This document shows, in pieces, positions 12,917-44,441 of a stretch of 44,680 nt of DNA. Each line of letters starts with the position of its first letter. The stretch's first letter is position 1. The position numbers and the translations under genes were made by a program. The notes beneath the pieces are model-generated. The model was given only the letters and a program-made list of their open reading frames with translations. It was not told the DNA's origin and did no database searches. This stretch comes from a virus, in the UHGV virus genome UHGV-0024713, one strand, 5' to 3'.

Positions 12917-13681
12917 TTATCGCGGAATACCGCAAATCTCGTTGAGAGTTTTCACGTCCAGCGCCACCGCCGTGGATTTTGGCTTGTCCGGGTATGGGAT
13001 GAATTGCTCAACTTCAGGCCACGCCTTAACCAGCTTCTTGTCAGTATTGTGCAGGTCCAGCACACCGGTAACGGTGAGTTTGAACGCATCATACTTCGCG
13101 CGCAACTCGCGACGGGCCTTGTCGTTACGGTCAAGGCGCTTACAGAAGTCATGGTCCGCCGGGTAGTCTACGCGACCGCGAGGGAGATATATCGGCAGCG
13201 CTTTCCCGTCCGCGTCAACTTCACATACTGACGCAAGCATAACCTCCTCGAACCCAGGTACGATATCGCCGAGATCGGGGGATAGCTTATTCATGTATTT
13301 ATATTCCCAGTATCCGCGATGTACGCGGTATTGGCGACCATCACCGCTCAAGGACAAGGTGCGAACATTTCCGCCTGCGTTGATTTCGAAAGTGGCGTCA
13401 TAAACGCGGCCTATACCCTTCGGGAGGCCTATGTCATAGCGATATGTTGCCTTGTTGGTGTAGACGCAGACGCAGTATATTGGCGACTTGGCACCTTCTA
13501 GTGCTTCGATGTGTGCGCGTAACTCGGCGAAAGTGCGAATGCCCTCCGGCATACAGTCCAGCGTGATTGCGTACGCCAGGTCGCGAGAGTCCATCATGAT
13601 TGATTTGGCTTCGGTAGCGATTTCATGGTCGCGCAGGATGTTAGCCAGAATCTGGTTTTTAATGTCTTTTGTCAGTCTCAT
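12917..13681 (-). CDS. Hypothetical protein (254 aa), antisense moron
   Basis: Start at internal ATG with GAGGA RBS; opposite strand to flanking structural genes; no recognisable motif. Confidence 0.6.
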   Translation of the reverse strand: MRLTKDIKNQILANILRDHEIATEAKSIMMDSRDLAYAITLDCMPEGIRTFAELRAHIEALEGAKSPIYCVCVYTNKATYRYDIGLPKGIGRVYDATFEINAGGNVRTLSLSGDGRQYRVHRGYWEYKYMNKLSPDLGDIVPGFEEVMLASVCEVDADGKALPIYLPRGRVDYPADHDFCKRLDRNDKARRELRAKYDAFKLTVTGVLDLHNTDKKLVKAWPEVEQFIPYPDKPKSTAVALDVKTLNEICGIPR

Positions 13682-13723
13682 TTTTGTGTCCTCGTGTTGG
13701 GGCTTTCGCCCCATTTGGCTTAG

Positions 13724-14131
13724 TTAAAGTGCTTCTAGAATCTCGTAAAACTTATTCGCCAGCGCCTGGCGGCGTTCGAATTTTTCAGTGATAACCAATT
13801 CCGGGCGGTTAAATAGCTTTGCGTGGGTGTTCCAATTGAGGATTTCCGTTTCCATTATTTTCTTCCGGTTGTAGTCGGTGTTTTTGATGCTAAATTCCTT
13901 GATAGCGTCATTAAGAAAATCAGTCATACACTCAACGTCTGTTCTCTTAACTTCGAACGAACGGGCCTCGATTGGGCTATTTGTGCGAAGTACGACGACT
14001 CCGCCGTGGTAGGTGTCGACTACCATATACTTATAAGTCACCCCATCCCACTCCGGATCGAAAGGGCGCCCAAATACGTCGTCGGCTTTCCACACTTTCT
14101 GGTACGGTGTTTCTTTGATTAATGTTGGCAT
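13724..14131 (-). CDS. Hypothetical protein (135 aa), antisense moron, AT-richer than surroundings
   Basis: AAGGA RBS; preceded on the minus strand by TTGCAA-18-TATATT with motif copies; visibly lower GC by eye. Confidence 0.6.
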   Translation of the reverse strand: MPTLIKETPYQKVWKADDVFGRPFDPEWDGVTYKYMVVDTYHGGVVVLRTNSPIEARSFEVKRTDVECMTDFLNDAIKEFSIKNTDYNRKKIMETEILNWNTHAKLFNRPELVITEKFERRQALANKFYEILEAL

Positions 14132-24958: not shown

Positions 24959-25566
24959 CCACCTTTAAACTATACGGCGTCTTAGGACGTCGTTTCGGTA
25001 AAGTGCATAAGCTGGACTGCTTCACACCGGGCGAGGGAATCACCGGCCTGTGTGTGAAGTTACCAGGCTTACAGGACTTTCTAATGTCGGCCCACCTGGA
25101 CAACATGATGTTCAAGGTGCGCAAGGGTAATCACACAATGACCGGTTACGACGAGTTGGGCGAGTTCCACGGCAACCGCGTCGTGACCATCGCACCGGTT
25201 ATGACCGGCGCAAAACGCGGACTAGGCCAATTACTGGCGGGCGTAGCCATCGTGGTGGCGTCGTTCTACACCGGCGGCCTTGCGACTGCCGCCTTTGGTG
25301 CTTCCGCCGCTACCGCTGCCGCTATTGGTACGGCGACGTTCTCGTTCGGGATGTCGATGGCGCTGGGCGGTGCTATGCAATTGCTGTCGCCACAGCCGAA
25401 AGGATTGCAGACACGGCAGGACGTGGATAACAAAGCGTCGTATGCGTTCGGCGGACCGGTAAACACGACCGCACAAGGTACGGCACTTGGTGTATTATGG
25501 GGCGAGCGTGAGATCGGCGGCGCTATTATTTCAGCCGGAATCGTAACCGAGGACTTGAACGAATGA
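24949..25566 (+). CDS. Tail assembly protein I-like
   Basis: 205-aa protein between K and J with Gly/Ala-rich hydrophobic C-terminal half. Confidence 0.7.
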   Translation: MAMTTFKLYGVLGRRFGKVHKLDCFTPGEGITGLCVKLPGLQDFLMSAHLDNMMFKVRKGNHTMTGYDELGEFHGNRVVTIAPVMTGAKRGLGQLLAGVAIVVASFYTGGLATAAFGASAATAAAIGTATFSFGMSMALGGAMQLLSPQPKGLQTRQDVDNKASYAFGGPVNTTAQGTALGVLWGEREIGGAIISAGIVTEDLNE

Positions 25567-28500
25567 CGATTGTATACGACGTCACAGGCCATAAAGGCGG
25601 CGGAGGCAAACAGCACACCCCACAAGAGACGCCAGATAGCCTGCATTCGCTGGCTAAAATCCGCATCTTGCTCGCACTGGGTGAAGGTGAGTTCGAAGGC
25701 ATTCCCGACCCCAACGAATTACGGCAGCGCGTTTATTTGGACGGCACACCGATCCAGAACGCCGACAGATCCGAAAACTTCCCCGGCGCGCGCGTGGAGT
25801 TCCGCCCCGGCACACAGCACCAGGACGTGATTCACGGATTTTCCGCGGTGGAAAGTGAGCAAACCGTAGGCGTAAAACTGGAATACGGCACGCCGTGGGT
25901 GCGCCAGATTAACGACATCAGTCTTGACGCCGTGCGCATTCGAATCGGCATTCCGGCCCTGTACACCAACGAAGACAACGGCGACCTGGTGGGCGGGCGC
26001 ATCGACTACAAAATAGTTGTGTATACGGACAACGCTGATCCGCGAGAGTTTACCTTCGCTGCCGTTGGTAAAACAATGTCGCTGTACGAGCGCGATCACC
26101 GCATCGAGTTACCGCCGAACGTGAACGCCGGCTGGCGCGTGGAAGTGCACCGCACAACGGCAGATTCCACATCGGCGAAAGTGGTCAATGATATCCGGGT
26201 GCAATCCATTACGGAGATTATCGACGCCCGCCTGCGATATCCGCTAACCGCGCTGTTGTTCGTGGAGTTCGACGCTAAGGCGTTCCAGAATATCCCGCGC
26301 GTATCCATTAAGTGTAAAGGCCGCAAAGTGCTGGTTCCGAACAACTACGACCCGATTAATCATACCTATTCGGGCGACTGGGATGGCACGTTCAAACGCG
26401 CATGGACGGATAACCCCGCGTGGCACTGGTACGATATTTGTATTACTGAGCGCTTCGGCCTCGGTCGGCGTATCAAACCGCAAATGTTAAACCGGTACGC
26501 GCTCTACCAGATTGCGCAGCGCTGCGATCAACTGGTCAGCGACGGCAACGGCGGGCAGGAAATCCGATTTAAGAATGATATGTACATCCAGTCGCAGACA
26601 GACGCCTGGACCGTGCTTAAGGATTTAGCTGCCATCTTCGCCGGGATGACCTGGTGGGGAAACCAAATGTTGAATATCGTCAGTGACCAACCGGTCGCAG
26701 CAGTGTCGCACACTATCACCAACGCCTCGGTGATTGATGGTCGATTCGACTACGCATCTGGCAGCCAGAAAACGCGGTACTCCACTTTCGCGGTAGCATA
26801 CGGCAACCCGAAAAACCACTATGATGACGCTATCGCAACGGGCCAGCGCGTCGAACTGGTACGCCGCCATAAGATTAACCGTCTGGATATCACGGCGATC
26901 GGCTGTACGCGTGAATCAGAAGCGCAACGCCGGGGGCACTGGGCGCTAATCTCCAACCAGCTTGACCAGCAAGTTAGCTTTAAGGTTGGCATGGAAGGAC
27001 TATTCTTTATTCCGGGTAGTGTAGTCGCGATCGCCGATACAAACATTTCTGGCGGCTTCGAGACACGCGGCGGTCGCCTGTTGCCAGATCCTGGCACGCG
27101 GACGGTGCTGAACACAGACAGCGAAATCACGTTCCGCCCTGGCGATAAATTCCTGGTACGCACCGATAGCGGTAATGTGGAGACTCGCGAGATCGCCAGC
27201 GTCAACGGCAACAAGGTTACGCTAAAAACCGCACTGGATGCCGACCCGATTCCGGACCAGCCGTTTTGCGTTGATGGCGACGATATCCAGTTGCAGAAGT
27301 TCCGCATCACCGACCTGGAATATGACGACTCTACCAGCACTTTTTCAGTGCGCGGGATCGAGTACAACGATAGCAAATATGATGCCGTTGATAATGGCGC
27401 TCGCCTTGACCCTGGCATCTTCACGCAAGTGCCTGACGGCGTAATGAAGGGGCCGGAATCCGTGACCATCACCCCGTCGCAGATTTCATCGCAAGGCCAG
27501 CTAATCACCAACGTGGATATTGTCTTCCCGCCGGTGAAGGATGCCGTTGTGTATGAAATCCAGTGGCGACGTACCAGCTTGCAGAATATGGCGATCCAAT
27601 GGGGTAACGACTGGGTGAACATCCCCCGCACGGCATCGAACGGTGCGCACATCCCGAACGTGTTTTCCGGCAACTATCAGGCACGCGTCCGCGCGATCGG
27701 TATGGGCGAGATTTCATCCCCGTGGGTGTCGTCTGCCATCACGCCGATCGAAGGTCGTCTCGGCGGGCTTAACGCGCCTATCATCACCAACGCGATTTCG
27801 GGCCTCCACCAAATTTTGTGGAAGTGGAACCACAACAACGCCGCGACGGATATCTCTTACACCGAGCTTGAAGTGCGCAAGACTGGTGAAACGGAATGGA
27901 AGTTCTTAACCAACGTCCCATATCCGGGGGCGGAGTACGCCCAAACGTCGCTGGAGTTCGGCATCTACCAGCAGTTGCGCGCCCGTGTAGCGGATAAAAT
28001 CGGAAACCTGTCGGACTGGTCAGATCCGTTTGAAGGCCAGGTGAGTGACAAAGTTGACGAATACATGAAGGGGCTTGATGACGAGTTCTTGACTTCCGAG
28101 GATGGTAAACACTTCCAGGAAGCAATAGACACCATGCCGCAGGGTATTTACGAGGCCATGCTCACCGACGCACAGCAAATGTTTAACGCCCGCGCCGAAT
28201 ATCAAGGGATCTACGCAGAAATCAAGGTGGCGTATAACGTGGCGGTGGATGCTAACGAGGCCGTGGCGCAACTGGAGACGTTGATCGGCACGCGCCTTGA
28301 CGATGCGGAAGCGTCAATCCACACGTTGCAGACCGCGCAAAGCACGCACGAACAAGCGTTCGCCCAGTACCAGCAGACTGTTGCCGCTAAATTCGGGGAA
28401 CAGGAAGCTGCCATCCAGCAGGTACAAACGGCAACGGCAGACGTAGCTGGCGCACTGGCTGAGTATAAGACCCATGTAGCGGCGCAGTTCGGTCAGCAGT

Positions 28501-29009
28501 CCGCAGCTATTGAGCAGAAGATGACGTCTTCGTTTAACCATGCTGGGGGTAGCGCTACGTATAGCCTTAAGGCTGGCGTGACGTATAACGGGACTTACTA
28601 TGACGCCGGTATGCAGCTTTCGGTTGTAGCGGAAGGGGGCGCGGTTAAATCGCGTATTGCGTTCAAGGCTGACCAGTTCTACATCATGCACCCGTCAAAT
28701 GGGTCGCTTTCGTCCGCGTTTATCGTTGACGGGGGTCAGGTGTACATCGACACGGCACGCATCAAGAACGCGTCAATCAACTTTGCGCAGATCACAGACA
28801 CGCTCCAATCCAACAACTGGATTCCGGGGGCCAGGGGCTGGCGTATTGCGAAAGATGGCGGTGCTGAATTTAACGAGGTAACCGTACGCGGCAACTTGTT
28901 CGCGACTACTGGTAACTTCGGATTCTCTGGCGGGTCTGTGCAGATCGACGCTACAGGCGTAAACGTCCCATTACCTGGAGGGGGTCGGGTTAAAGTCGGT
29001 ACGTGGTAA
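25563..29009 (+). CDS. Tail tip / host specificity protein J-like (central tail fibre)
   Basis: 1148-aa protein following M-L-K-I, same order and size class as lambda J. Confidence 0.9.
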   Translation: MTIVYDVTGHKGGGGKQHTPQETPDSLHSLAKIRILLALGEGEFEGIPDPNELRQRVYLDGTPIQNADRSENFPGARVEFRPGTQHQDVIHGFSAVESEQTVGVKLEYGTPWVRQINDISLDAVRIRIGIPALYTNEDNGDLVGGRIDYKIVVYTDNADPREFTFAAVGKTMSLYERDHRIELPPNVNAGWRVEVHRTTADSTSAKVVNDIRVQSITEIIDARLRYPLTALLFVEFDAKAFQNIPRVSIKCKGRKVLVPNNYDPINHTYSGDWDGTFKRAWTDNPAWHWYDICITERFGLGRRIKPQMLNRYALYQIAQRCDQLVSDGNGGQEIRFKNDMYIQSQTDAWTVLKDLAAIFAGMTWWGNQMLNIVSDQPVAAVSHTITNASVIDGRFDYASGSQKTRYSTFAVAYGNPKNHYDDAIATGQRVELVRRHKINRLDITAIGCTRESEAQRRGHWALISNQLDQQVSFKVGMEGLFFIPGSVVAIADTNISGGFETRGGRLLPDPGTRTVLNTDSEITFRPGDKFLVRTDSGNVETREIASVNGNKVTLKTALDADPIPDQPFCVDGDDIQLQKFRITDLEYDDSTSTFSVRGIEYNDSKYDAVDNGARLDPGIFTQVPDGVMKGPESVTITPSQISSQGQLITNVDIVFPPVKDAVVYEIQWRRTSLQNMAIQWGNDWVNIPRTASNGAHIPNVFSGNYQARVRAIGMGEISSPWVSSAITPIEGRLGGLNAPIITNAISGLHQILWKWNHNNAATDISYTELEVRKTGETEWKFLTNVPYPGAEYAQTSLEFGIYQQLRARVADKIGNLSDWSDPFEGQVSDKVDEYMKGLDDEFLTSEDGKHFQEAIDTMPQGIYEAMLTDAQQMFNARAEYQGIYAEIKVAYNVAVDANEAVAQLETLIGTRLDDAEASIHTLQTAQSTHEQAFAQYQQTVAAKFGEQEAAIQQVQTATADVAGALAEYKTHVAAQFGQQSAAIEQKMTSSFNHAGGSATYSLKAGVTYNGTYYDAGMQLSVVAEGGAVKSRIAFKADQFYIMHPSNGSLSSAFIVDGGQVYIDTARIKNASINFAQITDTLQSNNWIPGARGWRIAKDGGAEFNEVTVRGNLFATTGNFGFSGGSVQIDATGVNVPLPGGGRVKVGTW

Positions 29010-29015
29010 TGCTAA

Positions 29016-29039
29016 GGGGCCATCCGGCCCTTTTTTTTT
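29016..29039. terminator. Bidirectional intrinsic terminator between J (+) and the convergent minus-strand gene
   Basis: GGGGCC-atcc-GGCCC followed by T9; the T-run overlaps the minus-gene stop. Confidence 0.7.
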
Positions 29040-30003
29040 AATACATGTTAGGGATGACTAGTAGCGGGGTTGGTACGGCAATATTTTTACTTGGCATCTG
29101 GAATTGCTGCCGTGAGTAGTTGCCAATGACGCGGTTTTTTGCTATGCGCACATTATTGCCCGCCATTCGTATCCCGTTCATGCGAACGTGGTTATAGCCG
29201 CCGTTGTTCTCAATGAGCGCGCCGGTGTATGAGAGCTGGATCAGACTATTACCGATGTACTGGTCACCACCACCGATAGTAATCGTGCGGTCGTAGACAA
29301 ACGGCTTGTTTACCGTCGAGAACGTGACCTGACCCTGGTTGTTTGTCATGGTGATACCGGCCCCCGGTGAAGGCGGCGTATTGTTGAATATTACAAGGTC
29401 CATATCCACCGCAGCCGCCACATCGTCAATGCCACCATAGGACGCGTTGCGGACTATAATACTGCCGCCGTCGAAGCCGACGGATACGTTGCCGTCATCC
29501 CAGCGTGCAAACGGGACACCGCTAACAGGCAAGGGCATACTACCGTTGACGCGCACGCGCTGTGCGTATCGGCAGGTCATTAGCTTAGCTACGTTGGATA
29601 TTGCGGTGAAGTCCGTCGAGTTAGCCACCAGTAAGCCCGCGTTGCGTGAACCAACCGGCAGCACTTCCATTATGACGCCCGCCCATTGTGGTAAACCAGA
29701 GTACGCGCCATACGCATCCTCCCCGCGCAGGGTGATACCACTATTACCGTTGCGAGTAACCGACGTAATGTAAAACGGGTCGGGTATTACCAGGGTCTGG
29801 TCGAATACCTCAATCACGTCAACCGGATTAGTGAGGGCAACGACCAGTTCGGACCCAGGCGTTAGCTGGGTGTTAATGGTCAGCGTCTTGTCAGACTGAC
29901 AGCGCTGATTAAAGGTAGTGCAAAACGACGGCGCGCGTAGCCCGGCGGTTATCTCCATAACCGGACGCCCGTCGTTGTAGTCGATAAGTATTCCAGCACC
30001 CAT
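29038..30003 (-). CDS. Gly/Asn-rich beta-helix-like protein, candidate receptor-binding protein or tail spike
   Basis: Start at internal ATG with GGGAG RBS; repetitive VGFDGGS / IGGGDQY / NNGGYNH segments; co-oriented with the upstream lipoprotein. Confidence 0.4.
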   Translation of the reverse strand: MGAGILIDYNDGRPVMEITAGLRAPSFCTTFNQRCQSDKTLTINTQLTPGSELVVALTNPVDVIEVFDQTLVIPDPFYITSVTRNGNSGITLRGEDAYGAYSGLPQWAGVIMEVLPVGSRNAGLLVANSTDFTAISNVAKLMTCRYAQRVRVNGSMPLPVSGVPFARWDDGNVSVGFDGGSIIVRNASYGGIDDVAAAVDMDLVIFNNTPPSPGAGITMTNNQGQVTFSTVNKPFVYDRTITIGGGDQYIGNSLIQLSYTGALIENNGGYNHVRMNGIRMAGNNVRIAKNRVIGNYSRQQFQMPSKNIAVPTPLLVIPNMY

Positions 30004-30005
30004 TA

Positions 30006-30227
30006 TTACCACTCCCGTGATTTAACTGAAACAGTGCCGGAAAAATTGCCGTCACTATCGGCAGACAGACCAGTGAAACGCATGTCCACATTTCCGGAAG
30101 GGACTTTTTGCCCGTCAACGTAGCGCAACATGCAGCTACCGTAAGCCGTCGTAACGCAATCGCCGTTGTTGCGCTCCACAGCACAACCGGATAAAAGAAC
30201 CGCACAAATCATAATTAAAGTTTTCAT
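30006..30227 (-). CDS. Small outer-membrane lipoprotein (73 aa), candidate superinfection-exclusion protein
   Basis: Signal peptide MKTLIMICAVLLSGC with lipobox LSGC; two further Cys in the mature part; GGAGA RBS; motif-bearing promoter region upstream. Confidence 0.6.
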   Translation of the reverse strand: MKTLIMICAVLLSGCAVERNNGDCVTTAYGSCMLRYVDGQKVPSGNVDMRFTGLSADSDGNFSGTVSVKSREW

Positions 30228-30281
30228 GGTATCATCTCCTATATTTGGTTGAGTTTTAGTATTACACCGCTCGATCAAGAA

Positions 30282-30291
30282 TGCAACCAAT
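30282..30291 (-). promoter_or_regulatory. Motif copy in the divergent region between lipoprotein and tail-fibre genes
   Basis: + strand TGCAACCAAT, reading ATTGGTTGCA about 55 nt upstream of the lipoprotein start on the minus strand. Confidence 0.4.
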
Positions 30292-30307
30292 TTATGAGGA
30301 TTCAGCT

Positions 30308-31903
30308 ATGGCAGCGGGTACACTATCCGTAACGAATAACAGCAAGGCGGTTGTAGGGGTGGGCACAACGTTTACCTCGTTTAACGCCGGCGACTTCTTA
30401 ACGCTGGTGGTAGGACAAGTCCCCTACACCGTAGCAATCGCGTCCATTGAAAGCGACACCGCGCTTACGCTGGTGTTACCGTTCGACGGCCCATCGGCAA
30501 CCGGCCTTGCGTGGGATGGAGTTAAGCGCGATACCATGTCACTGGCAACGATGGGCGTTACCGTACAGGCGCAGAAAGCACTACGCTTTATGATCGCGGA
30601 CGAAAACAACTGGCGCGCAATCTTCGGCGATGCGGAAGAAATCACGGTGACGCTGCCAAACGGGCAAGTAATGCAAGGCATGTCATGGGGATATCTGTCC
30701 TCCTTGCTCAAGGAAGTAGACCCGATTGAGATGCGCGACCTCGCAGCGCAAGCCGAAGCCTCAAAATCGGCAGCGCAAGGATTTCGTAATGAGGCCGAAG
30801 GCTTCAAGACCGAGACGGCTGGCATTCGCGACGCCACCAATCAGATTAAGGCGGATACGCAGGCGATCCACGACGCCACTAATACCATCAAGACGCAGAC
30901 TGACCAGATTAAGACTGATACGCAGGTCATCAAAGACCAGACGAACCAGATCAAGACCGACACCGGCGTTATGAGGGACGAGGCCAACATCGCGAAGACG
31001 GACGCGCAAGCTGCCAGCGCTGCCGCGCGGGGATTCCGTGACCAGGCCGAGGAGTGGGCGCAAAGCGTTAACGCGGATAACCTGCTAACCAAATCAGGCA
31101 ACCTGGCAGGTCTTGCGGATAAAACTGCGTCGTGGGCAAACCTTATGCCTACCGGCCCGCTTCGCGTTGGGGCAGACCCTATTGCCGATCTTGACGCTAC
31201 GACAAAGCGCTGGGTTGCCCTTAACACCAGAATGGACGAGCACATTGCAGGCCTTAATGTTGACGTGACAAGTACAAATATAAAAGTGTATCCGGGGGAA
31301 TGCTATCTTCCATCTGAAGATAAAATATTGCGCCTGGAGGCGCCGAAGACTATCGCGCACAGTGGCTTAACAGCGGCAACGAAGTATTATATTTACGCAT
31401 ATAATGAAAGCGGATCGTTGGGGATTGAAGTCTCAACAACCGAAAATGTCAAATACGGATATAAAGCCAGCACTAAAAAAGACGACCCAAGTCGACGCTT
31501 CATTGGAATGTTTTACTTCACTGGAGGGTCCGAGGTTGCTATTTGCAAATTAATTGACGGTGAGTGTGTGCATTTATTTCCCTGGGGAAGTATTGGGCGA
31601 GTATTAAACAATGGAAAAGCCACTACTGATGCACCTGTAGATTATGAAAAATTTGTCCCTTCGGCATCCTTTACTAGTGTTAAAGTTGCAGTGACTAACA
31701 CCGCAACTACGATTGTTGCCGCTGATATAGGACCGATTGGGTTTGACTATGTAACTAACGTTCAACCGTATTACTGTAAGTTTTTAATAGACATACTTCC
31801 TAATATTGCTGGTGGCGGCTCTCTTAAGTACAAGTATACTTCCGCCCCACAAGACGCAGGAGGTTTTTTCATAGATGTTGCGGGGTATAAATATGACCGG
31901 TGA
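30308..31903 (+). CDS. Tail fibre protein with repeat-rich shaft and AT-richer C-terminal domain
   Basis: Internal ATG with GAGGA RBS; IKxDTQ-type periodic repeats; 3' third visibly lower GC by eye. Confidence 0.7.
   Translation: MAAGTLSVTNNSKAVVGVGTTFTSFNAGDFLTLVVGQVPYTVAIASIESDTALTLVLPFDGPSATGLAWDGVKRDTMSLATMGVTVQAQKALRFMIADENNWRAIFGDAEEITVTLPNGQVMQGMSWGYLSSLLKEVDPIEMRDLAAQAEASKSAAQGFRNEAEGFKTETAGIRDATNQIKADTQAIHDATNTIKTQTDQIKTDTQVIKDQTNQIKTDTGVMRDEANIAKTDAQAASAAARGFRDQAEEWAQSVNADNLLTKSGNLAGLADKTASWANLMPTGPLRVGADPIADLDATTKRWVALNTRMDEHIAGLNVDVTSTNIKVYPGECYLPSEDKILRLEAPKTIAHSGLTAATKYYIYAYNESGSLGIEVSTTENVKYGYKASTKKDDPSRRFIGMFYFTGGSEVAICKLIDGECVHLFPWGSIGRVLNNGKATTDAPVDYEKFVPSASFTSVKVAVTNTATTIVAADIGPIGFDYVTNVQPYYCKFLIDILPNIAGGGSLKYKYTSAPQDAGGFFIDVAGYKYDR
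30760..31060 (+). repeat. Periodic in-frame repeats in the fibre shaft (ATNQIKADTQAI / TNTIKTQTDQIKTDTQVIKDQTNQIKTDT)
   Basis: Recurring cagattaag / cagatcaag / accgacacc units. Confidence 0.6.
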
Positions 31904-32015
31904 ATATTACGCGATTAAAGAGGATGGTAGTTGGAGAGCGATCGGGGACCCTAGTGAAATCATGGAAGACGAAACGCTATCTACGGTAATGCCCCCGAGC
32001 ACGGATGGCAGCTAA
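31893..32015 (+). CDS. Small acidic ORF (about 40 aa) overlapping the fibre 3' end, speculative
   Basis: ATG 9 nt before the fibre stop; ends just before the terminator. Confidence 0.2.
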   Translation: MTGEYYAIKEDGSWRAIGDPSEIMEDETLSTVMPPSTDGS

Positions 32016-32031
32016 TATAAGAGATAAGAGA

Positions 32032-32054
32032 AGGGCCATACGGCCCTTTTTTTT
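32032..32054. terminator. Bidirectional intrinsic terminator between the tail fibre and the end of the minus-strand operon
   Basis: AGGGCC-atac-GGCCCT followed by T8 overlapping the minus-gene stop. Confidence 0.7.
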
Positions 32055-32628
32055 AGTTTGAGTTTTCCCAGTCCATTTTGCGCCGCACCAGTGGGCTTTC
32101 GTAATATTCCTTTCCTTCCACTTCCACCAAAGGCCAGTCGTTCACAATCACGTACGGTTCTGCGATATCCTCAATCACGCCGTGCGCGCTATGTTGCCCG
32201 AACGACACACCAACCAGGATAACACCGGCAACGCGACGGGTCAGATATTCGCGAGCGCAACGGGCCTCAACCAGTCCGCGACGGATGCCGCTGGTGGCTT
32301 TCACCTCGTAGGTCCAAACGGCATCGATCATATGCTCGCGGTAGTCTGGGCCGGACTTAACCTTGCGTTTACCGACCATGATAATATCGCCGCGGTCAAT
32401 GGTATTGGCGCTAAACAGGCCGGTACGCATGAGTAAGCCTTGCGGTATGCAACTACGCCCGCCCGCCTGCCCCTCAAGGTACATGCCCGCAAACATCTCG
32501 CCCAGCACACCGACAAGACGGCTTTGCTTGCACGCGTCAGACTTTAAACGCCACTGGTCAAACTCGATGCTCGCTATCATTGCCGCCAGGTGGAATTGTT
32601 TACCAGATATTTCATATTCGCCGTACAT
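32053..32628 (-). CDS. Hypothetical protein with PD-(D/E)XK-like signature
   Basis: GPDYREHMIDAVWTYEVK (PD, 14 residues, EVK); last gene of the minus operon. Confidence 0.4.
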   Translation of the reverse strand: MYGEYEISGKQFHLAAMIASIEFDQWRLKSDACKQSRLVGVLGEMFAGMYLEGQAGGRSCIPQGLLMRTGLFSANTIDRGDIIMVGKRKVKSGPDYREHMIDAVWTYEVKATSGIRRGLVEARCAREYLTRRVAGVILVGVSFGQHSAHGVIEDIAEPYVIVNDWPLVEVEGKEYYESPLVRRKMDWENSN

Positions 32629-42024: not shown

Positions 42025-43447
42025 TGCTTAAGTCCTCGTCAGTAGCTTCCGACCACGCAGGGCGAGGGTCGTCGATTGGTGCTAATACCGGTTTGGCGGG
42101 TGCGCGCGTGATTTTATCACACAGCTTCGCCCACACTTTTGGTTTTTCGTCCTTCAATACCTTCTCTGCATCCGTAGGGCTGAGCAATGTTTCTTTGTAC
42201 ATCACATCGCGCTTGATCCGTGCCTTCGTGAAGATTTCAATCACTTCGCTCTCGTCCGCCCACTTGCGGATTCCTTCCTTACCGGCAACCATCTTGAGGC
42301 CAAGCGATTCGCCATCACCCGCCATTACAGCCTTAAACACCGCGGACTCGATAGCCTTGATGTGCTGGCGCATTGCGTCCAGGCCTTCATAAGCCTTGCG
42401 CAGTTCCGCGGCGGTCATAGCGCCTGGTGTGGCTTCCTTCTTGCCACGCTTCGCACGTCGTGCCGCCTTCCTGGCTTCGCGGGCCATATTGCGGTCATGG
42501 TTGGCGCATTCTTCCTCTGTCGCAATACTCACGTCGTCGCCCAGGTCTTCGTCGGTTGCCGTTGGGGGTGTCATAGTGTCGATTGCGGCCTTAGCGCGGG
42601 CACTACACTGATCCGCAAATCGGCACCACTGGCACGCATCAACGCTGGGACGGAAGTCGGCACGGGTAAGTCCCCTCTTGCCTCGGGAATACGCCTCCAG
42701 TGAGGCAATAGCGCGCTTGGATGCAAACTTCGCGAATATCTCCAGCGCTTCTACCGAAATATCCCACTCCGACGCCCCGCCGCAATACGGCTGGAAGATA
42801 ACCAGGCGAACGGTCGTAATGTCGTACATAGTTTGCAGCTTGCGCAGCAGTCCGAGCGCGTACAACATAAGCTGTTTGTTCTCTTTCGCCTCGACCTTAT
42901 GCCGCCCGGTCTTCAGGTCGCCAACAATCAGCATGTACGTCCCATCGGTCTTTTTCATGACCATGACCATATCGGCAGTACCGAACGTTTTAATCCTGTT
43001 GCCGTCGATCTCGTAGCCTGAGTGAAGGACGCGGGTCAGATCGGCGCGCATCTCAAGCTGGACAAACTCCGCCACTTCGAGGAGCGGTCGCCAGTGGTCG
43101 ATGTACGCGTCGCACTGTTTCACCATGTCGTCGTTGACCAGTACGCCGCCTTTCGGTGCTTTCGGGTGTGCCTTTACCGGCCCCTTTCCTTCGTTCTCGA
43201 CGTAGCACCCTTTATACGTCTTCGCGGTTATCAGCTTCTCACCGGCGATAATGCGGTTTAGCACCACTTCAGATACGGTGTGCATACTCGTACCGTTAAT
43301 CGCGGCTTGCCCGGATTCGTTCGGGATATCTTTTTCCACCACCAGGGCCGCAGGGCAACCCATCCACTTTTTAGCACCGGATGGCCCAAGTAATGAGTGT
43401 TCTGTATTGCTACCGGATTGCGTTTTACGTTTTGGTTTAATCGCCAT
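42017..43447 (-). CDS. PD-(D/E)XK nuclease, Cas4/RecB-like (DUF2800-type by recollection) with C-terminal Cys cluster
   Basis: 476 aa; CQWCRFADQC Cys cluster typical of Fe-S Cas4-like nucleases; position in the replication operon. Confidence 0.6.
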   Translation of the reverse strand: MAIKPKRKTQSGSNTEHSLLGPSGAKKWMGCPAALVVEKDIPNESGQAAINGTSMHTVSEVVLNRIIAGEKLITAKTYKGCYVENEGKGPVKAHPKAPKGGVLVNDDMVKQCDAYIDHWRPLLEVAEFVQLEMRADLTRVLHSGYEIDGNRIKTFGTADMVMVMKKTDGTYMLIVGDLKTGRHKVEAKENKQLMLYALGLLRKLQTMYDITTVRLVIFQPYCGGASEWDISVEALEIFAKFASKRAIASLEAYSRGKRGLTRADFRPSVDACQWCRFADQCSARAKAAIDTMTPPTATDEDLGDDVSIATEEECANHDRNMAREARKAARRAKRGKKEATPGAMTAAELRKAYEGLDAMRQHIKAIESAVFKAVMAGDGESLGLKMVAGKEGIRKWADESEVIEIFTKARIKRDVMYKETLLSPTDAEKVLKDEKPKVWAKLCDKITRAPAKPVLAPIDDPRPAWSEATDEDLSNE

Positions 43448-43626
43448 TATTCCACCCGTGTAAACTGGACAATTACATATTTCACATTTGCCAGGCCCGC
43501 TTTTTCGACTCGGCGCTTAACTTCATTTTGCGCGTCCACAAAGCAATTGCTTGCGTTGGTGTTTTCAACAATAAAAGAAGTGTGGTCGTTTAATTCGTGG
43601 CATGTTGCCAGCACGAAGAATTTCAT
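43447..43626 (-). CDS. Small hypothetical protein (59 aa), translationally coupled
   Basis: Start overlaps upstream stop and stop overlaps the nuclease ATG (TAATG). Confidence 0.4.
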   Translation of the reverse strand: MKFFVLATCHELNDHTSFIVENTNASNCFVDAQNEVKRRVEKAGLANVKYVIVQFTRVE

Positions 43627-43877
43627 TATTTCGTCTCCCAGCGGTCAATCGTTCTTGCTTCGGATGCAACCGCAAAGCGAACATATTCCAGATTGGAGTC
43701 CGCCCAAATATAAAAGTCGGGGTTAGTAAAGGTGGTGCGCTTAATTTGCGCGGGGGTGTTACGGCGTTTATCTATTACGGCAACTCGTGACTGAAAGCTG
43801 CCGATGCGTTCGAATAGCCAATAGTACGGGCGCTGGTCGCGGGAGTCCACCGCCTCAATTAGCGTGAAGCGTGCCAT
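43626..43877 (-). CDS. Hypothetical protein (83 aa)
   Basis: GAGGA RBS; first gene after the upstream terminator. Confidence 0.5.
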   Translation of the reverse strand: MARFTLIEAVDSRDQRPYYWLFERIGSFQSRVAVIDKRRNTPAQIKRTTFTNPDFYIWADSNLEYVRFAVASEARTIDRWETK

Positions 43878-43890
43878 TGTCTCGTCCTCT

Positions 43891-43917
43891 AAAAATAGGC
43901 CCGCAGATTAGCGGGCC
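43891..43917 (-). terminator. Intrinsic terminator (minus strand) after the charged-repeat protein gene
   Basis: Minus strand GGCCCGC-taatct-GCGGGCC followed by TATTTTT. Confidence 0.6.
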
Positions 43918-43925
43918 GGATAATA

Positions 43926-44441
43926 TTAATCTTCCAGTTCGAAATAAGTTTCGACGATTTCTTTAAGATCTTTGTGGAAGTCTTCGACGTCTTCATCTTC
44001 CAGCTTGGCGATTGATTTGATCTCGAACGATTCCAGCAGGTCGTCAAATTCGTCGTTCGCGTCGTCGTCGTCACCACCGGCAATAATAGCGGCATATTGT
44101 TTGATTTCGTCGCGCATCTCCGCCAGCGGATCGGCATCTTTCTTGCCTTTGCCTTTCGCCGGGGCTTTTTTAGATTTAGCCGGTTTTTCGTCTTCGGCAT
44201 CATCGTCGTCATCTTCTACGACTTCTTTTTTGGCCTTACCTTTCGCAGGGGCTTTTTTAGATTTAGCCGGTTTTTCGTCTTCGGCGTCATCGTCGTCATC
44301 TTCTACGACTTCTTTCTTGGCCTTAGACGGCTTCTTGTCTTCCTGCTTACCAACGGCAGCGCCAACGGTTTCATAATGCTTAGCGATGGTTTCCAGTGCT
44401 ACTACGCCGCGAGTAATCAGGTTTACGATTTGTTCAAACAT
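43926..44441 (-). CDS. Highly charged tandem-repeat protein (171 aa) with alternating poly-Asp/Glu and Lys/Ala-rich blocks
   Basis: Two near-perfect 28-aa repeats KKEVVEDDDDDAEDEKPAKSKKAPAKGK; GGAGA RBS; own terminator. Confidence 0.65.
   Translation of the reverse strand: MFEQIVNLITRGVVALETIAKHYETVGAAVGKQEDKKPSKAKKEVVEDDDDDAEDEKPAKSKKAPAKGKAKKEVVEDDDDDAEDEKPAKSKKAPAKGKGKKDADPLAEMRDEIKQYAAIIAGGDDDDANDEFDDLLESFEIKSIAKLEDEDVEDFHKDLKEIVETYFELED
44150..44320 (-). repeat. 84-bp tandem duplication (2 copies) inside the charged-repeat gene
   Basis: ...cgccggggcttttttagatttagccggtttttcgtcttcggcatcatcgtcgtcatcttctacgacttc... repeated with 2-3 substitutions. Confidence 0.7.

What the first reader, a model, noticed from the sequence alone, without database searches (positions are those of the whole stretch)
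30308..32015. Mosaic tail fibre: repeat-rich shaft, AT-rich C-terminal domain and a tiny trailing ORF
The fibre has periodic IKxDTQ-type repeats (about 30760-31060) and its last third (about 31250-31903) is visibly AT-richer than the rest of the genome, suggesting a horizontally exchanged receptor-binding domain. A 40-codon acidic ORF overlaps its stop and may be a chaperone remnant.
Basis: partly seen in the sequence, partly recalled or inferred. Interest (0 to 1): 0.5.

Follow-up and report, generated by a model that had tools for sequence, protein, structure and literature searches.

The report
Mosaic tail fibre with mini-chaperone gene
This E. coli phage has swapped the receptor-binding tip of its side tail fibre for a foreign, AT-rich module, and the swap brought along a 40-codon gene that is the cut-down front end of a tail-fibre assembly chaperone and still appears to be kept by selection.

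Summary
The window is a Dhillonvirus-like E. coli siphophage. Gene 30308-31903 is its lateral tail fibre. It has a conserved N-terminal anchor, 16 heptad repeats (30737-31072) and a C-terminal 222-aa all-beta module. That module lies in the lowest-GC stretch of the 44.7 kb (0.42 against 0.54; GC3 0.37 against 0.65).

Backbone homology to other Dhillonviruses stops at the LDATTKRWV joint (about 31216) and resumes at about 32020, just before a shared terminator. So roughly 0.8 kb was exchanged as one cassette. It replaces the usual tip that ends in an S74 intramolecular chaperone.

The new module belongs to a large family with no Pfam match. It is always C-terminal and ends G[YF]x[YF]xR.

The trailing ORF (31893-32015, 40 aa, net charge -7.5) lies inside the cassette. 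In related fibres the same position, with the same 11-nt overlap, holds either a full 107-166-aa Caudo_TAP chaperone or a 39-42-aa mini-ORF. The mini-ORF aligns to the N-terminal segment of those chaperones, which the literature describes as the fibre-binding part. It shows frame-specific purifying selection (pN/pS about 0.2).

The fibre mosaic is ordinary. The conserved headless chaperone is a modestly novel variant, and its function is inferred, not shown.

The parts
30308..31903 (+). Lateral tail fibre gene (531 aa plus stop)
   Evidence: phrog_1980 'tail fiber protein' covers aa 10-324, E 5e-82. Syntenic with the annotated lateral tail fibre genes of AV129 and Oekolampad. GAGGA lies 7 nt before the ATG.
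30308..30730 (+). Conserved N-terminal anchor region (aa 1 to about 140)
   Evidence: Nearly invariant among the window, AV129 and Oekolampad. 87-93% nt identity to L005. The AF2 model shows a small beta domain plus helices, at low to medium confidence. BASEL papers describe this end as the virion attachment part (PMC8594841).
30737..31072 (+). 16 heptad repeats, the predicted coiled-coil shaft
   Evidence: Lag 7/14/21 identity exceeds all 5000 shuffles. I/F/M at heptad position 2 and T/A at position 6. AF2 gives one long helix at aa 139-253. Copy number and sequence differ in L005 and Oekolampad.
31190..31216 (+). Joint motif LDATTKRWV, the left recombination boundary
   Evidence: DNA homology to AV129 ends at 31203 by blastn and at about 31215 in the MAFFT alignment. 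D-A-x-T-[KQ]-x-[WYQ]-[VA]-type motifs precede the module in P0002, P0003, P0004 and P0009.
31217..32020 (+). Exchanged cassette of about 0.8 kb (tip module plus mini-ORF)
   Evidence: No backbone homology between 31204 and 32020 for AV129, or between 31087 and 32018 for Oekolampad. No DNA match in the phage or E. coli collections. Lowest GC in the window.
31235..31900 (+). C-terminal all-beta tip module (aa 310-531), no Pfam match, putative receptor-binding domain
31880..31885 (+). SD-like GCGGGG inside the fibre's conserved (A/G)-G-Y codons
   Evidence: Lies 7-12 nt before ATG 31893. The same position reads GGAGGG, GGAGGC or GGAGGA in L006, L008 and L013.
31893..32015 (+). 40-codon acidic mini-ORF, a truncated Tfa-like gene (N-terminal segment only)
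   Evidence: Orthologous mini-ORFs in L005, L006 and L012. Full Caudo_TAP genes at the same site in L008-L010, L011, L013 and L016. hhalign probability 91%. pN/pS about 0.2 in this frame only.
32031..32054 (.). Shared hairpin plus T-run terminator between the fibre operon and the convergent gene 32053-32628(-); right cassette boundary
   Evidence: AAGGGCC-ATAC-GGCCCTT followed by T6. Conserved in AV129, Oekolampad and L005, where backbone homology resumes.

Best explanation
The gene encodes the lateral (side) tail fibre of a Dhillonvirus-type siphophage, built from exchangeable modules.

Modules. A conserved N-terminal part anchors the fibre to the tail. Sixteen heptads form a trimeric coiled-coil shaft. 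After the joint motif LDATTKRWV comes a 222-aa beta-sandwich tip, which is the likely receptor-binding domain. By analogy with other Dhillonviruses it probably binds a surface glycan such as O-antigen.

The swap. The tip and the following 40-codon gene were acquired together as one cassette of about 0.8 kb from an AT-richer gene pool. They replaced the usual tip, which ends in an S74 intramolecular chaperone.

The small gene. It is the truncated front end of a Tfa-type (Caudo_TAP) tail-fibre assembly protein. It keeps the short N-terminal segment, which in Tfa proteins contacts the fibre tip. It has lost the conserved C-terminal helical trimerisation domain. Its start lies 11 nt before the fibre stop, and its Shine-Dalgarno-like sequence is encoded by the fibre's conserved G-G-Y codons, so it is probably translationally coupled to the fibre. 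Its acidic 4.4-kDa product most likely binds the nascent tip module, either helping it fold or trimerise or staying bound as a cap.

Shown: the composition break, the recombination boundaries, module family membership, homology and synteny of the small ORF with Tfa genes, and purifying selection.

Inferred: trimeric state, receptor class, translation of the ORF, and its chaperone or cap activity.
For: Composition and boundaries.

Different best hits. The 4-kb region around the fibre gene matches 158 Dhillonvirus-type records, with backbone homology of 85-86% across the N-half. The C-half has no DNA match. By tblastn it hits only 248- and 255-aa proteins encoded just after the tail host-specificity gene of two Stenotrophomonas phages.

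Module family. 592 representatives; 121 of the 150 best end within 5 aa of the protein's C-terminus, all with the G[YF]x[YF]xR ending, on proteins of 200-2048 aa.

Fold. The AF2 model has pLDDT 91 and is all-beta. The closest solved structure is the trimeric beta-sandwich tip of the Bdellovibrio Bd2133 fibre, which that paper says 'substitutes for the S74 chaperone' (PMC10769870).

Relatives. The AV129 and Oekolampad fibres carry Peptidase_S74; this fibre does not.

Mini-ORF.
- The same 11-nt overlap occurs in 8 of 8 loci that have a downstream gene: four full Caudo_TAP genes and four mini-ORFs.
- hhalign of the mini-ORF profile against the Tfa N-terminus gives E 1.1e-6.
- Window versus L005: pS 0.46, pN 0.10 (Fisher p 3e-4). 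Window versus L006: pS 0.87, pN 0.26 (p 8e-7). In the two other frames dN/dS is 0.8-2.7.
- The mini-ORF is 56% identical between the window and L006, while their tip modules are only 41% identical.

Tfa domain logic (variable N-terminal domain binds the fibre, conserved C-terminal helices trimerise): PMC9608196, citing the Mu Tfa structure.

Dhillonvirus lateral fibres target O-antigen: PMC11990801.
Against: - No experimental or expression evidence exists for the 40-aa product.
- The window's own SD-like element (GCGGGG) is weak.
- Only four mini-ORF instances were found. Scans of the viral, metagenome and genome collections found no more.
- Some fibres with the same module have no downstream gene at all: L007, L015 and the Stenotrophomonas phages. 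The module can therefore fold without any Tfa-like partner, which weakens the case for an essential chaperone role.
- The mini-ORF does not match Pfam Caudo_TAP. That model covers mainly the part that has been lost.
- Lower GC in the module than in the rest of the fibre is seen in several other loci. Part of the GC drop may therefore be a property of the family rather than a sign of recent transfer.
Confidence: 0.65

Rival explanations
1. The small ORF is a dead relic of a deleted Tfa gene. It is not translated, or it is translated without consequence. It looks conserved only because the cassettes are young or because the DNA serves another role, such as spacing before the terminator.
For: In L012 an obviously decayed, out-of-frame Caudo_TAP C-terminal piece lies right after the mini-ORF, showing that these genes do get broken. 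Fibres with the same module exist without any downstream gene. The gene caller skipped the ORF in L005. The SD is weak in the window.
Against: Substitutions are strongly biased towards synonymous changes in this frame only. Against L006, synonymous sites are saturated (pS 0.87) while pN is 0.26, and the two proteins are still 56% identical. All four copies keep their length to within one codon at the aligned C-terminal end (39-42 aa, the longest carrying two extra N-terminal residues), plus the start and the 11-nt overlap. In L012 the N-terminal 42 codons stayed intact while the rest decayed.
Confidence: 0.2
2. The peptide is expressed but is not a folding helper. It could be a permanent virion component that caps or extends the fibre tip and takes part in receptor choice, as Mu Tfa stays on the fibre. 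Or it could be a regulator that masks the tip.
For: Literature reports that the Mu and Ur-lambda Tfa proteins remain on mature fibres and contribute to host recognition (PMC9608196). The trimerisation domain thought to drive assembly is missing here. The strong negative charge (-7.5) is conserved. The Bd2133 tip fold has a peptide-binding pocket at the trimer apex (PMC10769870).
Against: There are no data on virion composition. A 40-aa peptide has little surface for receptor binding. The fold similarity to Bd2133 covers only about half of the module.
Confidence: 0.2
3. The AT-rich last third is not foreign. It reflects the amino-acid composition or local mutational bias of a fast-evolving receptor-binding domain that has been inherited vertically in this lineage.
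For: The module is lower in GC than the N-terminal part in most loci examined: L005, L007, L008, L011 and L012.
Against: GC3 falls from 0.65 to 0.37, so the shift is at codon level and not only in amino-acid content. There are sharp DNA homology breakpoints at a joint motif and at the terminator. The 4-kb region matches 158 relatives, yet the last 800 bp match none of the 50,697 phage records, and the two relatives examined, AV129 and Oekolampad, carry S74-ending tips. The same module sits on T5-like, lambda-J-linked and other unrelated fibres.
Confidence: 0.05

Closest known systems
Dhillonvirus lateral tail fibres (e.g. Oekolampad Bas18 gp27, AV129, RuthEpting Bas85 Gp29)
   Same: Same locus, downstream of gpJ and the DUF6453 and lipoprotein genes and convergent with the gp26-like gene. 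Near-identical N-terminal anchor. Heptad coiled-coil shaft. Described as O-antigen-targeting fibres with N-terminal coiled coils (PMC11990801).
   Different: Those fibres are about 607 aa and end in a T5-like tip with a Peptidase_S74 intramolecular chaperone. This one is 531 aa, ends in an unrelated beta-sandwich module, and has a separate 40-codon gene after it.
Tfa / Caudo_TAP (PF02413) tail-fibre assembly proteins (phage Mu Tfa, lambda Tfa, P2 G)
   Same: The gene lies immediately after, and overlaps, the fibre gene. The mini-ORF is homologous to the N-terminal segment of bona fide Caudo_TAP proteins that follow fibres with the same module. In Tfa proteins the N-terminal domain is the fibre-binding part (PMC9608196).
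   Different: It lacks the entire conserved C-terminal helical domain (...APDIxWP), which defines the Pfam family and is thought to trimerise and drive assembly. At 40 aa it compares with 107-194 aa for family members.
Bdellovibrio bacteriovorus MAT fibre Bd2133, C-terminal tip domain (PDB 8OND/8OK3)
   Different: Only 102-115 residues align, at 12% identity, so it covers about half of the 222-aa module. It comes from a bacterial predator, not a phage. No sequence-level relationship was detected.
Bordetella phage BPP-1 Mtd (major tropism determinant), beta-sandwich domain
   Same: It is the only PDB sequence hit of the module profile: E 0.003, profile positions 10-84 against Mtd residues 68-140. 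It is also a distal receptor-binding protein of a tail fibre.
C-terminal tip module of Xanthomonas phage XAJ2 'DUF2793' protein, Rhizobium phage Palo tail fibre, and Stenotrophomonas phage Bhz63/phiSHP3 248-255-aa proteins
   Same: Same whole-module fold (TMq 0.86, 26% identity to XAJ2) and same sequence family. Encoded at the distal end of tail gene clusters.
   Different: They are stand-alone or sit on other N-termini. None has a known function or receptor. No trailing mini-ORF in L003, the Bhz63 locus that was checked.

Membership tests
Dhillonvirus lateral tail fibre | Conserved N-terminal anchor sequence | tested here: met
   aa 1 to about 150 are nearly invariant against AV129 and Oekolampad. 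phrog_1980 E 5e-82.
Dhillonvirus lateral tail fibre | Genomic position: after gpJ and the small RBP/lipoprotein genes, convergent with the gp26-like gene | tested here: met
   Same gene order as in AV129, Oekolampad and L005.
Dhillonvirus lateral tail fibre | T5-like tip ending in a Peptidase_S74 intramolecular chaperone | tested here: not met
   PF13884 is found in the AV129 and Oekolampad fibres but not in this fibre. The C-terminal 230 aa are unalignable.
Unnamed C-terminal tip-module family (phrog_34307-like; ends G[YF]x[YF]xR) | Significant profile or sequence match over the whole module | tested here: met
   phrog_34307 E 3.9e-21. phmmer finds 68 representatives at E<=1e-10, most covering query residues 15-235.
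Unnamed C-terminal tip-module family (phrog_34307-like; ends G[YF]x[YF]xR) | Located at the extreme C-terminus, with the terminal motif and an invariant final Arg | tested here: met
   The window protein ends ...FIDVAGYKYDR. 121 of 150 hits end within 5 aa of their C-terminus. R222 is invariant in alignment A2.
Unnamed C-terminal tip-module family (phrog_34307-like; ends G[YF]x[YF]xR) | Receptor binding at the fibre tip | not testable with these tools
   Only positional and fold analogy is available.
Caudo_TAP / Tfa tail-fibre assembly proteins (PF02413), for the 40-aa ORF | Match to the Pfam model above the gathering score | tested here: not met
   No Pfam hit even at E<=1 for the window or L006 mini-ORFs. 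The full-length neighbours score 50-98 bits.
Caudo_TAP / Tfa tail-fibre assembly proteins (PF02413), for the 40-aa ORF | Conserved C-terminal helical domain (...L..W..Y...L.R.D...AP.I.WP) | tested here: not met
   Absent. The ORF stops 5-6 residues after the conserved Pro that precedes this domain.
Caudo_TAP / Tfa tail-fibre assembly proteins (PF02413), for the 40-aa ORF | Homology of the N-terminal (fibre-binding) segment to family members cognate to the same fibre type | tested here: met
   hhalign probability 91%, E 1.1e-6, over 29 columns aligned to Tfa residues 3-31.
Caudo_TAP / Tfa tail-fibre assembly proteins (PF02413), for the 40-aa ORF | Encoded directly downstream of its fibre gene | tested here: met
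   The start lies 11 nt before the fibre stop, as for the four full Tfa genes in L008, L011, L013 and L016.
Caudo_TAP / Tfa tail-fibre assembly proteins (PF02413), for the 40-aa ORF | Promotes folding or trimerisation of the fibre | not testable with these tools
Mtd-type DGR-diversified receptor-binding proteins | C-type-lectin fold variable region with an associated template repeat and reverse transcriptase | not tested
   Only a weak sequence hit to the Mtd beta-sandwich domain (E 0.003). No CLec-fold hits in the fold searches. DGR components were not searched for.

The most novel reading that the evidence does not exclude
The 40-aa acidic peptide is a working minimal tail-fibre chaperone or tip cap. 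On this reading, in this fibre family the short fibre-binding N-terminal segment of a Tfa protein is enough by itself, and the conserved trimerisation domain that defines the Caudo_TAP family is dispensable. The segment has been kept as a stand-alone micro-gene in several phage lineages, and it travels with its cognate tip module as a two-gene exchange cassette.
Probability: 0.4. Interest if true: 0.6.

Novelty: new variant of a known kind. Interest (0 to 1): 0.4.

Why it matters
Swapping receptor-binding tips is the standard way phages change host range, so the mosaic itself only adds one more tip type to the Dhillonvirus repertoire. That tip belongs to a large family with no Pfam match and no known receptor.

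The more useful point is practical. The exchange unit here is the tip plus a 120-bp micro-gene that gene callers tend to miss. It was called in L006 but not in L005, and it has no match in any protein library used here.

If the peptide is needed for fibre folding or function, chimeric-fibre engineering and host-range prediction that move only the annotated fibre gene would fail.

It would also give a natural test of which half of a Tfa chaperone is sufficient for function.

Tried and rejected
- DNA tandem-repeat search of the shaft found nothing. The repeat exists only at protein level.
- Searches with the C-terminal domain:
  - The k-mer-indexed protein search with the single sequence gave no hits. 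The exhaustive HMMER search was needed.
  - DNA searches of the cassette in the phage and E. coli collections gave nothing.
- Searches for more mini-ORFs:
  - tblastn of the 46-aa ORF against phages gave nothing.
  - Pattern scans with the mini-ORF alignment gave no hits in viral contigs or genome contigs. The single metagenome hit (L014) lies inside a long high-GC ORF on the other strand and is spurious.
  - A scan of viral contigs with the single module sequence found nothing.
- The upstream ATG 31875 with its perfect AGGAGG was considered as the start. I rejected it because neither the ATG nor the SD is conserved in L006, and the SD is lost in L005. ATG 31893 and the 11-nt overlap are universal.
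- Programmed frameshifting at the T-run GGTTTTTTC (31862-31870), fusing the ORF to the fibre, was considered. I rejected it because a -1 shift leads to the wrong frame, a TAG at 31872-31874 closes the ORF's frame, and the T-run is absent in L006.
- The full-length fibre model was of low confidence (pLDDT 59) and was used only for the coarse domain order.
- The Mtd similarity is too weak to build on.
- Literature searches found no report of a stand-alone N-terminal Tfa fragment, but the search was narrow.
Full report
**What the window is.** The 4 kb around the finding matches 158 phage records, almost all Escherichia phages of the genus Dhillonvirus. The best is AV129 at about 88% DNA identity, but no record covers more than 79% of the query. 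The local gene order is:
- gpJ-like tail tip gene, 25563-29009;
- two minus-strand genes, a DUF6453 protein and a Cor-like phage lipoprotein;
- the fibre gene;
- a convergent 191-aa gene, 32053-32628.

This is the same order as in AV129, Oekolampad (Bas18) and a metagenomic Dhillonvirus contig, L005.

**Checking the observation.** All four elements are real.
- The ORF is open from 30281.
- The 'IKxDTQ' periodicity is a run of 16 heptads at nt 30737-31072. I/F/M dominates position 2, K/R position 3 and T/A position 6. Identity at lags 7, 14 and 21 (26, 33, 23) exceeds the maximum of 5000 shuffles (20). It is a protein-level repeat; TRF sees nothing in the DNA. A monomer AF2 model makes it one long helix, aa 139-253. 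This fits the 'elongated N-terminal coiled coil' described for Dhillonvirus fibres (PMC11990801).
- The last third is the most AT-rich DNA in the window. GC is 0.424 against 0.561 upstream. GC3 is 0.367 against 0.638. The seven lowest of all 600-bp windows lie at 31201-31501, about 4 sd below the mean.
- The small ORF exists and overlaps the fibre stop.

**The exchange.**
- blastn homology to AV129 runs from 29001 to 31203 and resumes at 32021. Homology to Oekolampad stops at 31086 and resumes at 32019.
- The left boundary is the codons for LDATTKRWV (31190-31216). After this point the AV129 sequence is unalignable. Similar D-A-x-T-K/Q motifs precede the same module in unrelated fibres, so this looks like a shared recombination joint.
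- The right boundary lies just 5' of a hairpin plus T-run terminator (32031-32054). The terminator is part of the conserved backbone.
- The intervening 0.8 kb has no DNA match in 50,697 phage records or in 5,426 complete E. coli genomes.
- AV129 and Oekolampad fibres are about 607 aa and end in a Peptidase_S74 intramolecular chaperone. This fibre is 531 aa and has none.
Both fail, so the exchange is supported.

One caveat applies. The module is lower in GC than its N-terminal partner in several other loci too. Part of the drop may therefore be a property of this module family rather than a measure of how recent the transfer was.

**What the new tip is.**
- Pfam has no model for it. PHROGs has an unannotated one, phrog_34307, E 4e-21.
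- An exhaustive HMMER search found 592 cluster representatives at E<=1e-3. The nearest (P0001, 84% identity) is the fibre of contig L005.
- Among the best 150 hits, the module sits at or close to the C-terminus of proteins of 200 to 2048 aa. In 121 the match runs to within 5 residues of the end, and all of those finish with G[YF]x[YF]xR. In the other 29 only the first, better-conserved half aligns.
- Hosts of the module include fibres with the same Dhillonvirus-like anchor, a T5-like L-shaped fibre, and stand-alone proteins of about 250 aa encoded just after the host-specificity gene of Stenotrophomonas phages.
- With a 30-sequence alignment, AF2 gives a confident all-beta model (pLDDT 91).
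- The best viral predicted structures are a Xanthomonas phage XAJ2 protein (TMq 0.86) and annotated tail fibres.
- The only PDB sequence hit is weak, to the beta-sandwich domain of BPP-1 Mtd (E 0.003).

Everything points to a distal, probably receptor-binding tip. The receptor is unknown. The O-antigen suggestion rests only on what is published for Dhillonvirus lateral fibres (PMC8594841, PMC11990801).

**The small ORF.** It lies wholly inside the exchanged cassette, ending at 32015 where backbone homology resumes at 32019-32021. It is therefore not a leftover of the ancestral Dhillonvirus fibre end. I looked downstream of other fibres that carry the module.
- P0004, P0005, P0016 and P0011 are each followed by a Caudo_TAP (PF02413) gene of 109, 107, 128 and 166 codons.
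- P0001 (L005), P0002 (L006) and P0008 (L012) are followed by ORFs of 40, 39 and 42 codons.
- P0009, P0003 and Stenotrophomonas phage Bhz63 (L003) are followed by nothing.

In all eight loci with a downstream gene, the ATG lies exactly 11 nt before the fibre stop (..GGnGGnTAYnnnTATGnnnGnTGA). The fibre's conserved G-G-Y-x-Y-x-R-stop codons therefore also supply the SD-like element and the start codon. This identifies ATG 31893 (40 codons) as the start, not ATG 31875.

The mini-ORFs align with the first 30 or so residues of the full proteins. Compare MTGEYYAIKEDGSWRAIGDPSEIMEDETLST with MHAELWAVRGSSYRAISSEQDLQDDEMLHT. Profile-profile comparison gives probability 91%, E 1.1e-6. The Pfam model matches mainly the C-terminal two-thirds of the full proteins, which is the part the mini-ORFs lack. 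According to the literature read here, Tfa proteins are modular. A variable N-terminal domain binds the fibre tip, and a conserved C-terminal helical domain mediates trimerisation and assembly (PMC9608196, summarising the Mu Tfa structure). The window's ORF is therefore the fibre-binding end of a Tfa without its conserved domain.

**Relic or gene?** The Nei-Gojobori counts outside the overlap are:

| Comparison | pS | pN | Fisher p |
|---|---|---|---|
| Window vs L005 | 0.46 | 0.10 | 3e-4 |
| Window vs L006 | 0.87 (saturated) | 0.26 | 8e-7 |

- The two alternative frames give dN/dS ratios of 0.8-2.7.
- The window and L006 peptides are 56% identical although their tip modules are only 41% identical.
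- All four copies keep length (39-42 aa), strong negative charge (-6.5 to -7.5) and the overlap geometry.
- In L012 the 42 N-terminal codons are intact, while the rest of the Tfa gene survives only as a shortened, out-of-frame fragment. This looks like the intermediate state and suggests the front end is what selection keeps.

This argues for a translated, functional micro-protein. The sample is only four sequences, and no expression data exist.

**Mechanism proposed (inferred).** The peptide is made by translation coupled to the end of the fibre gene. It binds the nascent tip module the way the N-terminal segment of its full-length relatives does. It then either assists folding or trimerisation or remains as a cap. 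The YYAIK-EDGS-WRAI pattern suggests a beta-hairpin, but this was not modelled. Because some fibres with this module have no partner gene, the role may be auxiliary rather than essential.

**Comparison and novelty.** The mosaic fibre is textbook phage biology, and the variability of this very locus in Dhillonvirus is published (PMC8594841). The tip type is new for the genus within the collections searched and has no Pfam annotation, but it is one member of a large family. The stand-alone, selected N-terminal Tfa fragment fails the defining tests of Caudo_TAP membership, namely the Pfam match and the C-terminal domain. It is nonetheless clearly derived from that family, and I rate it a new variant of a known kind. 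My limited literature searches found no report of such a fragment.

**Verdict.** The fibre mosaic is ordinary and the mini-chaperone is of moderate interest. Interest score 0.4.

Noticed in passing
window 29038-30012 (-) and 30006-30290 (-): Between gpJ and the fibre lie two minus-strand genes. One is a 324-aa DUF6453 protein (phrog_1265, labelled 'membrane protein'). The other is a small phage lipoprotein (PF24052) with weak similarity to the Cor superinfection-exclusion protein; its likely true start is MKTLIMICAVLLSGC. In L006 and L013 the DUF6453 gene is on the same strand as J and the fibre instead.
   Followed up: partly
window 13351-13900: Second-lowest GC stretch of the window (0.44-0.48), spanning the 5' part of ORF 12917-13714 (-) and the 3' end of ORF 13724-14131 (-). 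It may be another foreign patch.
   Followed up: no
window 43926-44441 (-): A 171-aa, extremely acidic and lysine-rich ORF with an internal duplication of about 28 aa (KKEVVEDDDDDAEDEKPAKSKKAPAKGK twice). It lies in another low-GC area (43150-43950).
   Followed up: no
window 30758-30937 versus L005: Inside the heptad array the window and the otherwise close contig L005 drop to 49-68% DNA identity. The array differs in heptad number between relatives: the window resembles AV129 and L005 resembles Oekolampad. This is a second mosaic patch within the shaft.
   Followed up: partly
window 32017-32031: A 7-nt direct repeat, ATAAGAG twice, sits exactly at the right cassette junction between the mini-ORF stop and the terminator. 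L005 has a 17-nt insertion at this spot.
   Followed up: partly
L012 3442-3737 (NCBI assembly GCA_039652315.1): An intact 42-codon mini-ORF is followed by a shortened, out-of-frame remnant of the Caudo_TAP C-terminal domain (...[34 protein letters not shown]). This appears to be a snapshot of the truncation process. A sequencing error cannot be excluded.
   Followed up: partly
window 31880-31903 and L005, L006, L008, L011, L012, L013, L016: In every locus with a downstream gene, the fibre's conserved last codons (G-G-Y-x-Y-x-R-stop) also encode the SD-like element and the start codon of that gene. The overlap is always 11 nt.
   Followed up: yes
L003 3926-4693 and L004 3926-4672 (Stenotrophomonas phages Bhz63, phiSHP3): The same tip module occurs as a stand-alone protein of about 250 aa directly after the Phage-tail_3 host-specificity gene of GTA-like tail clusters. 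This suggests it can attach to the tail by a very short N-terminal adaptor.
   Followed up: no
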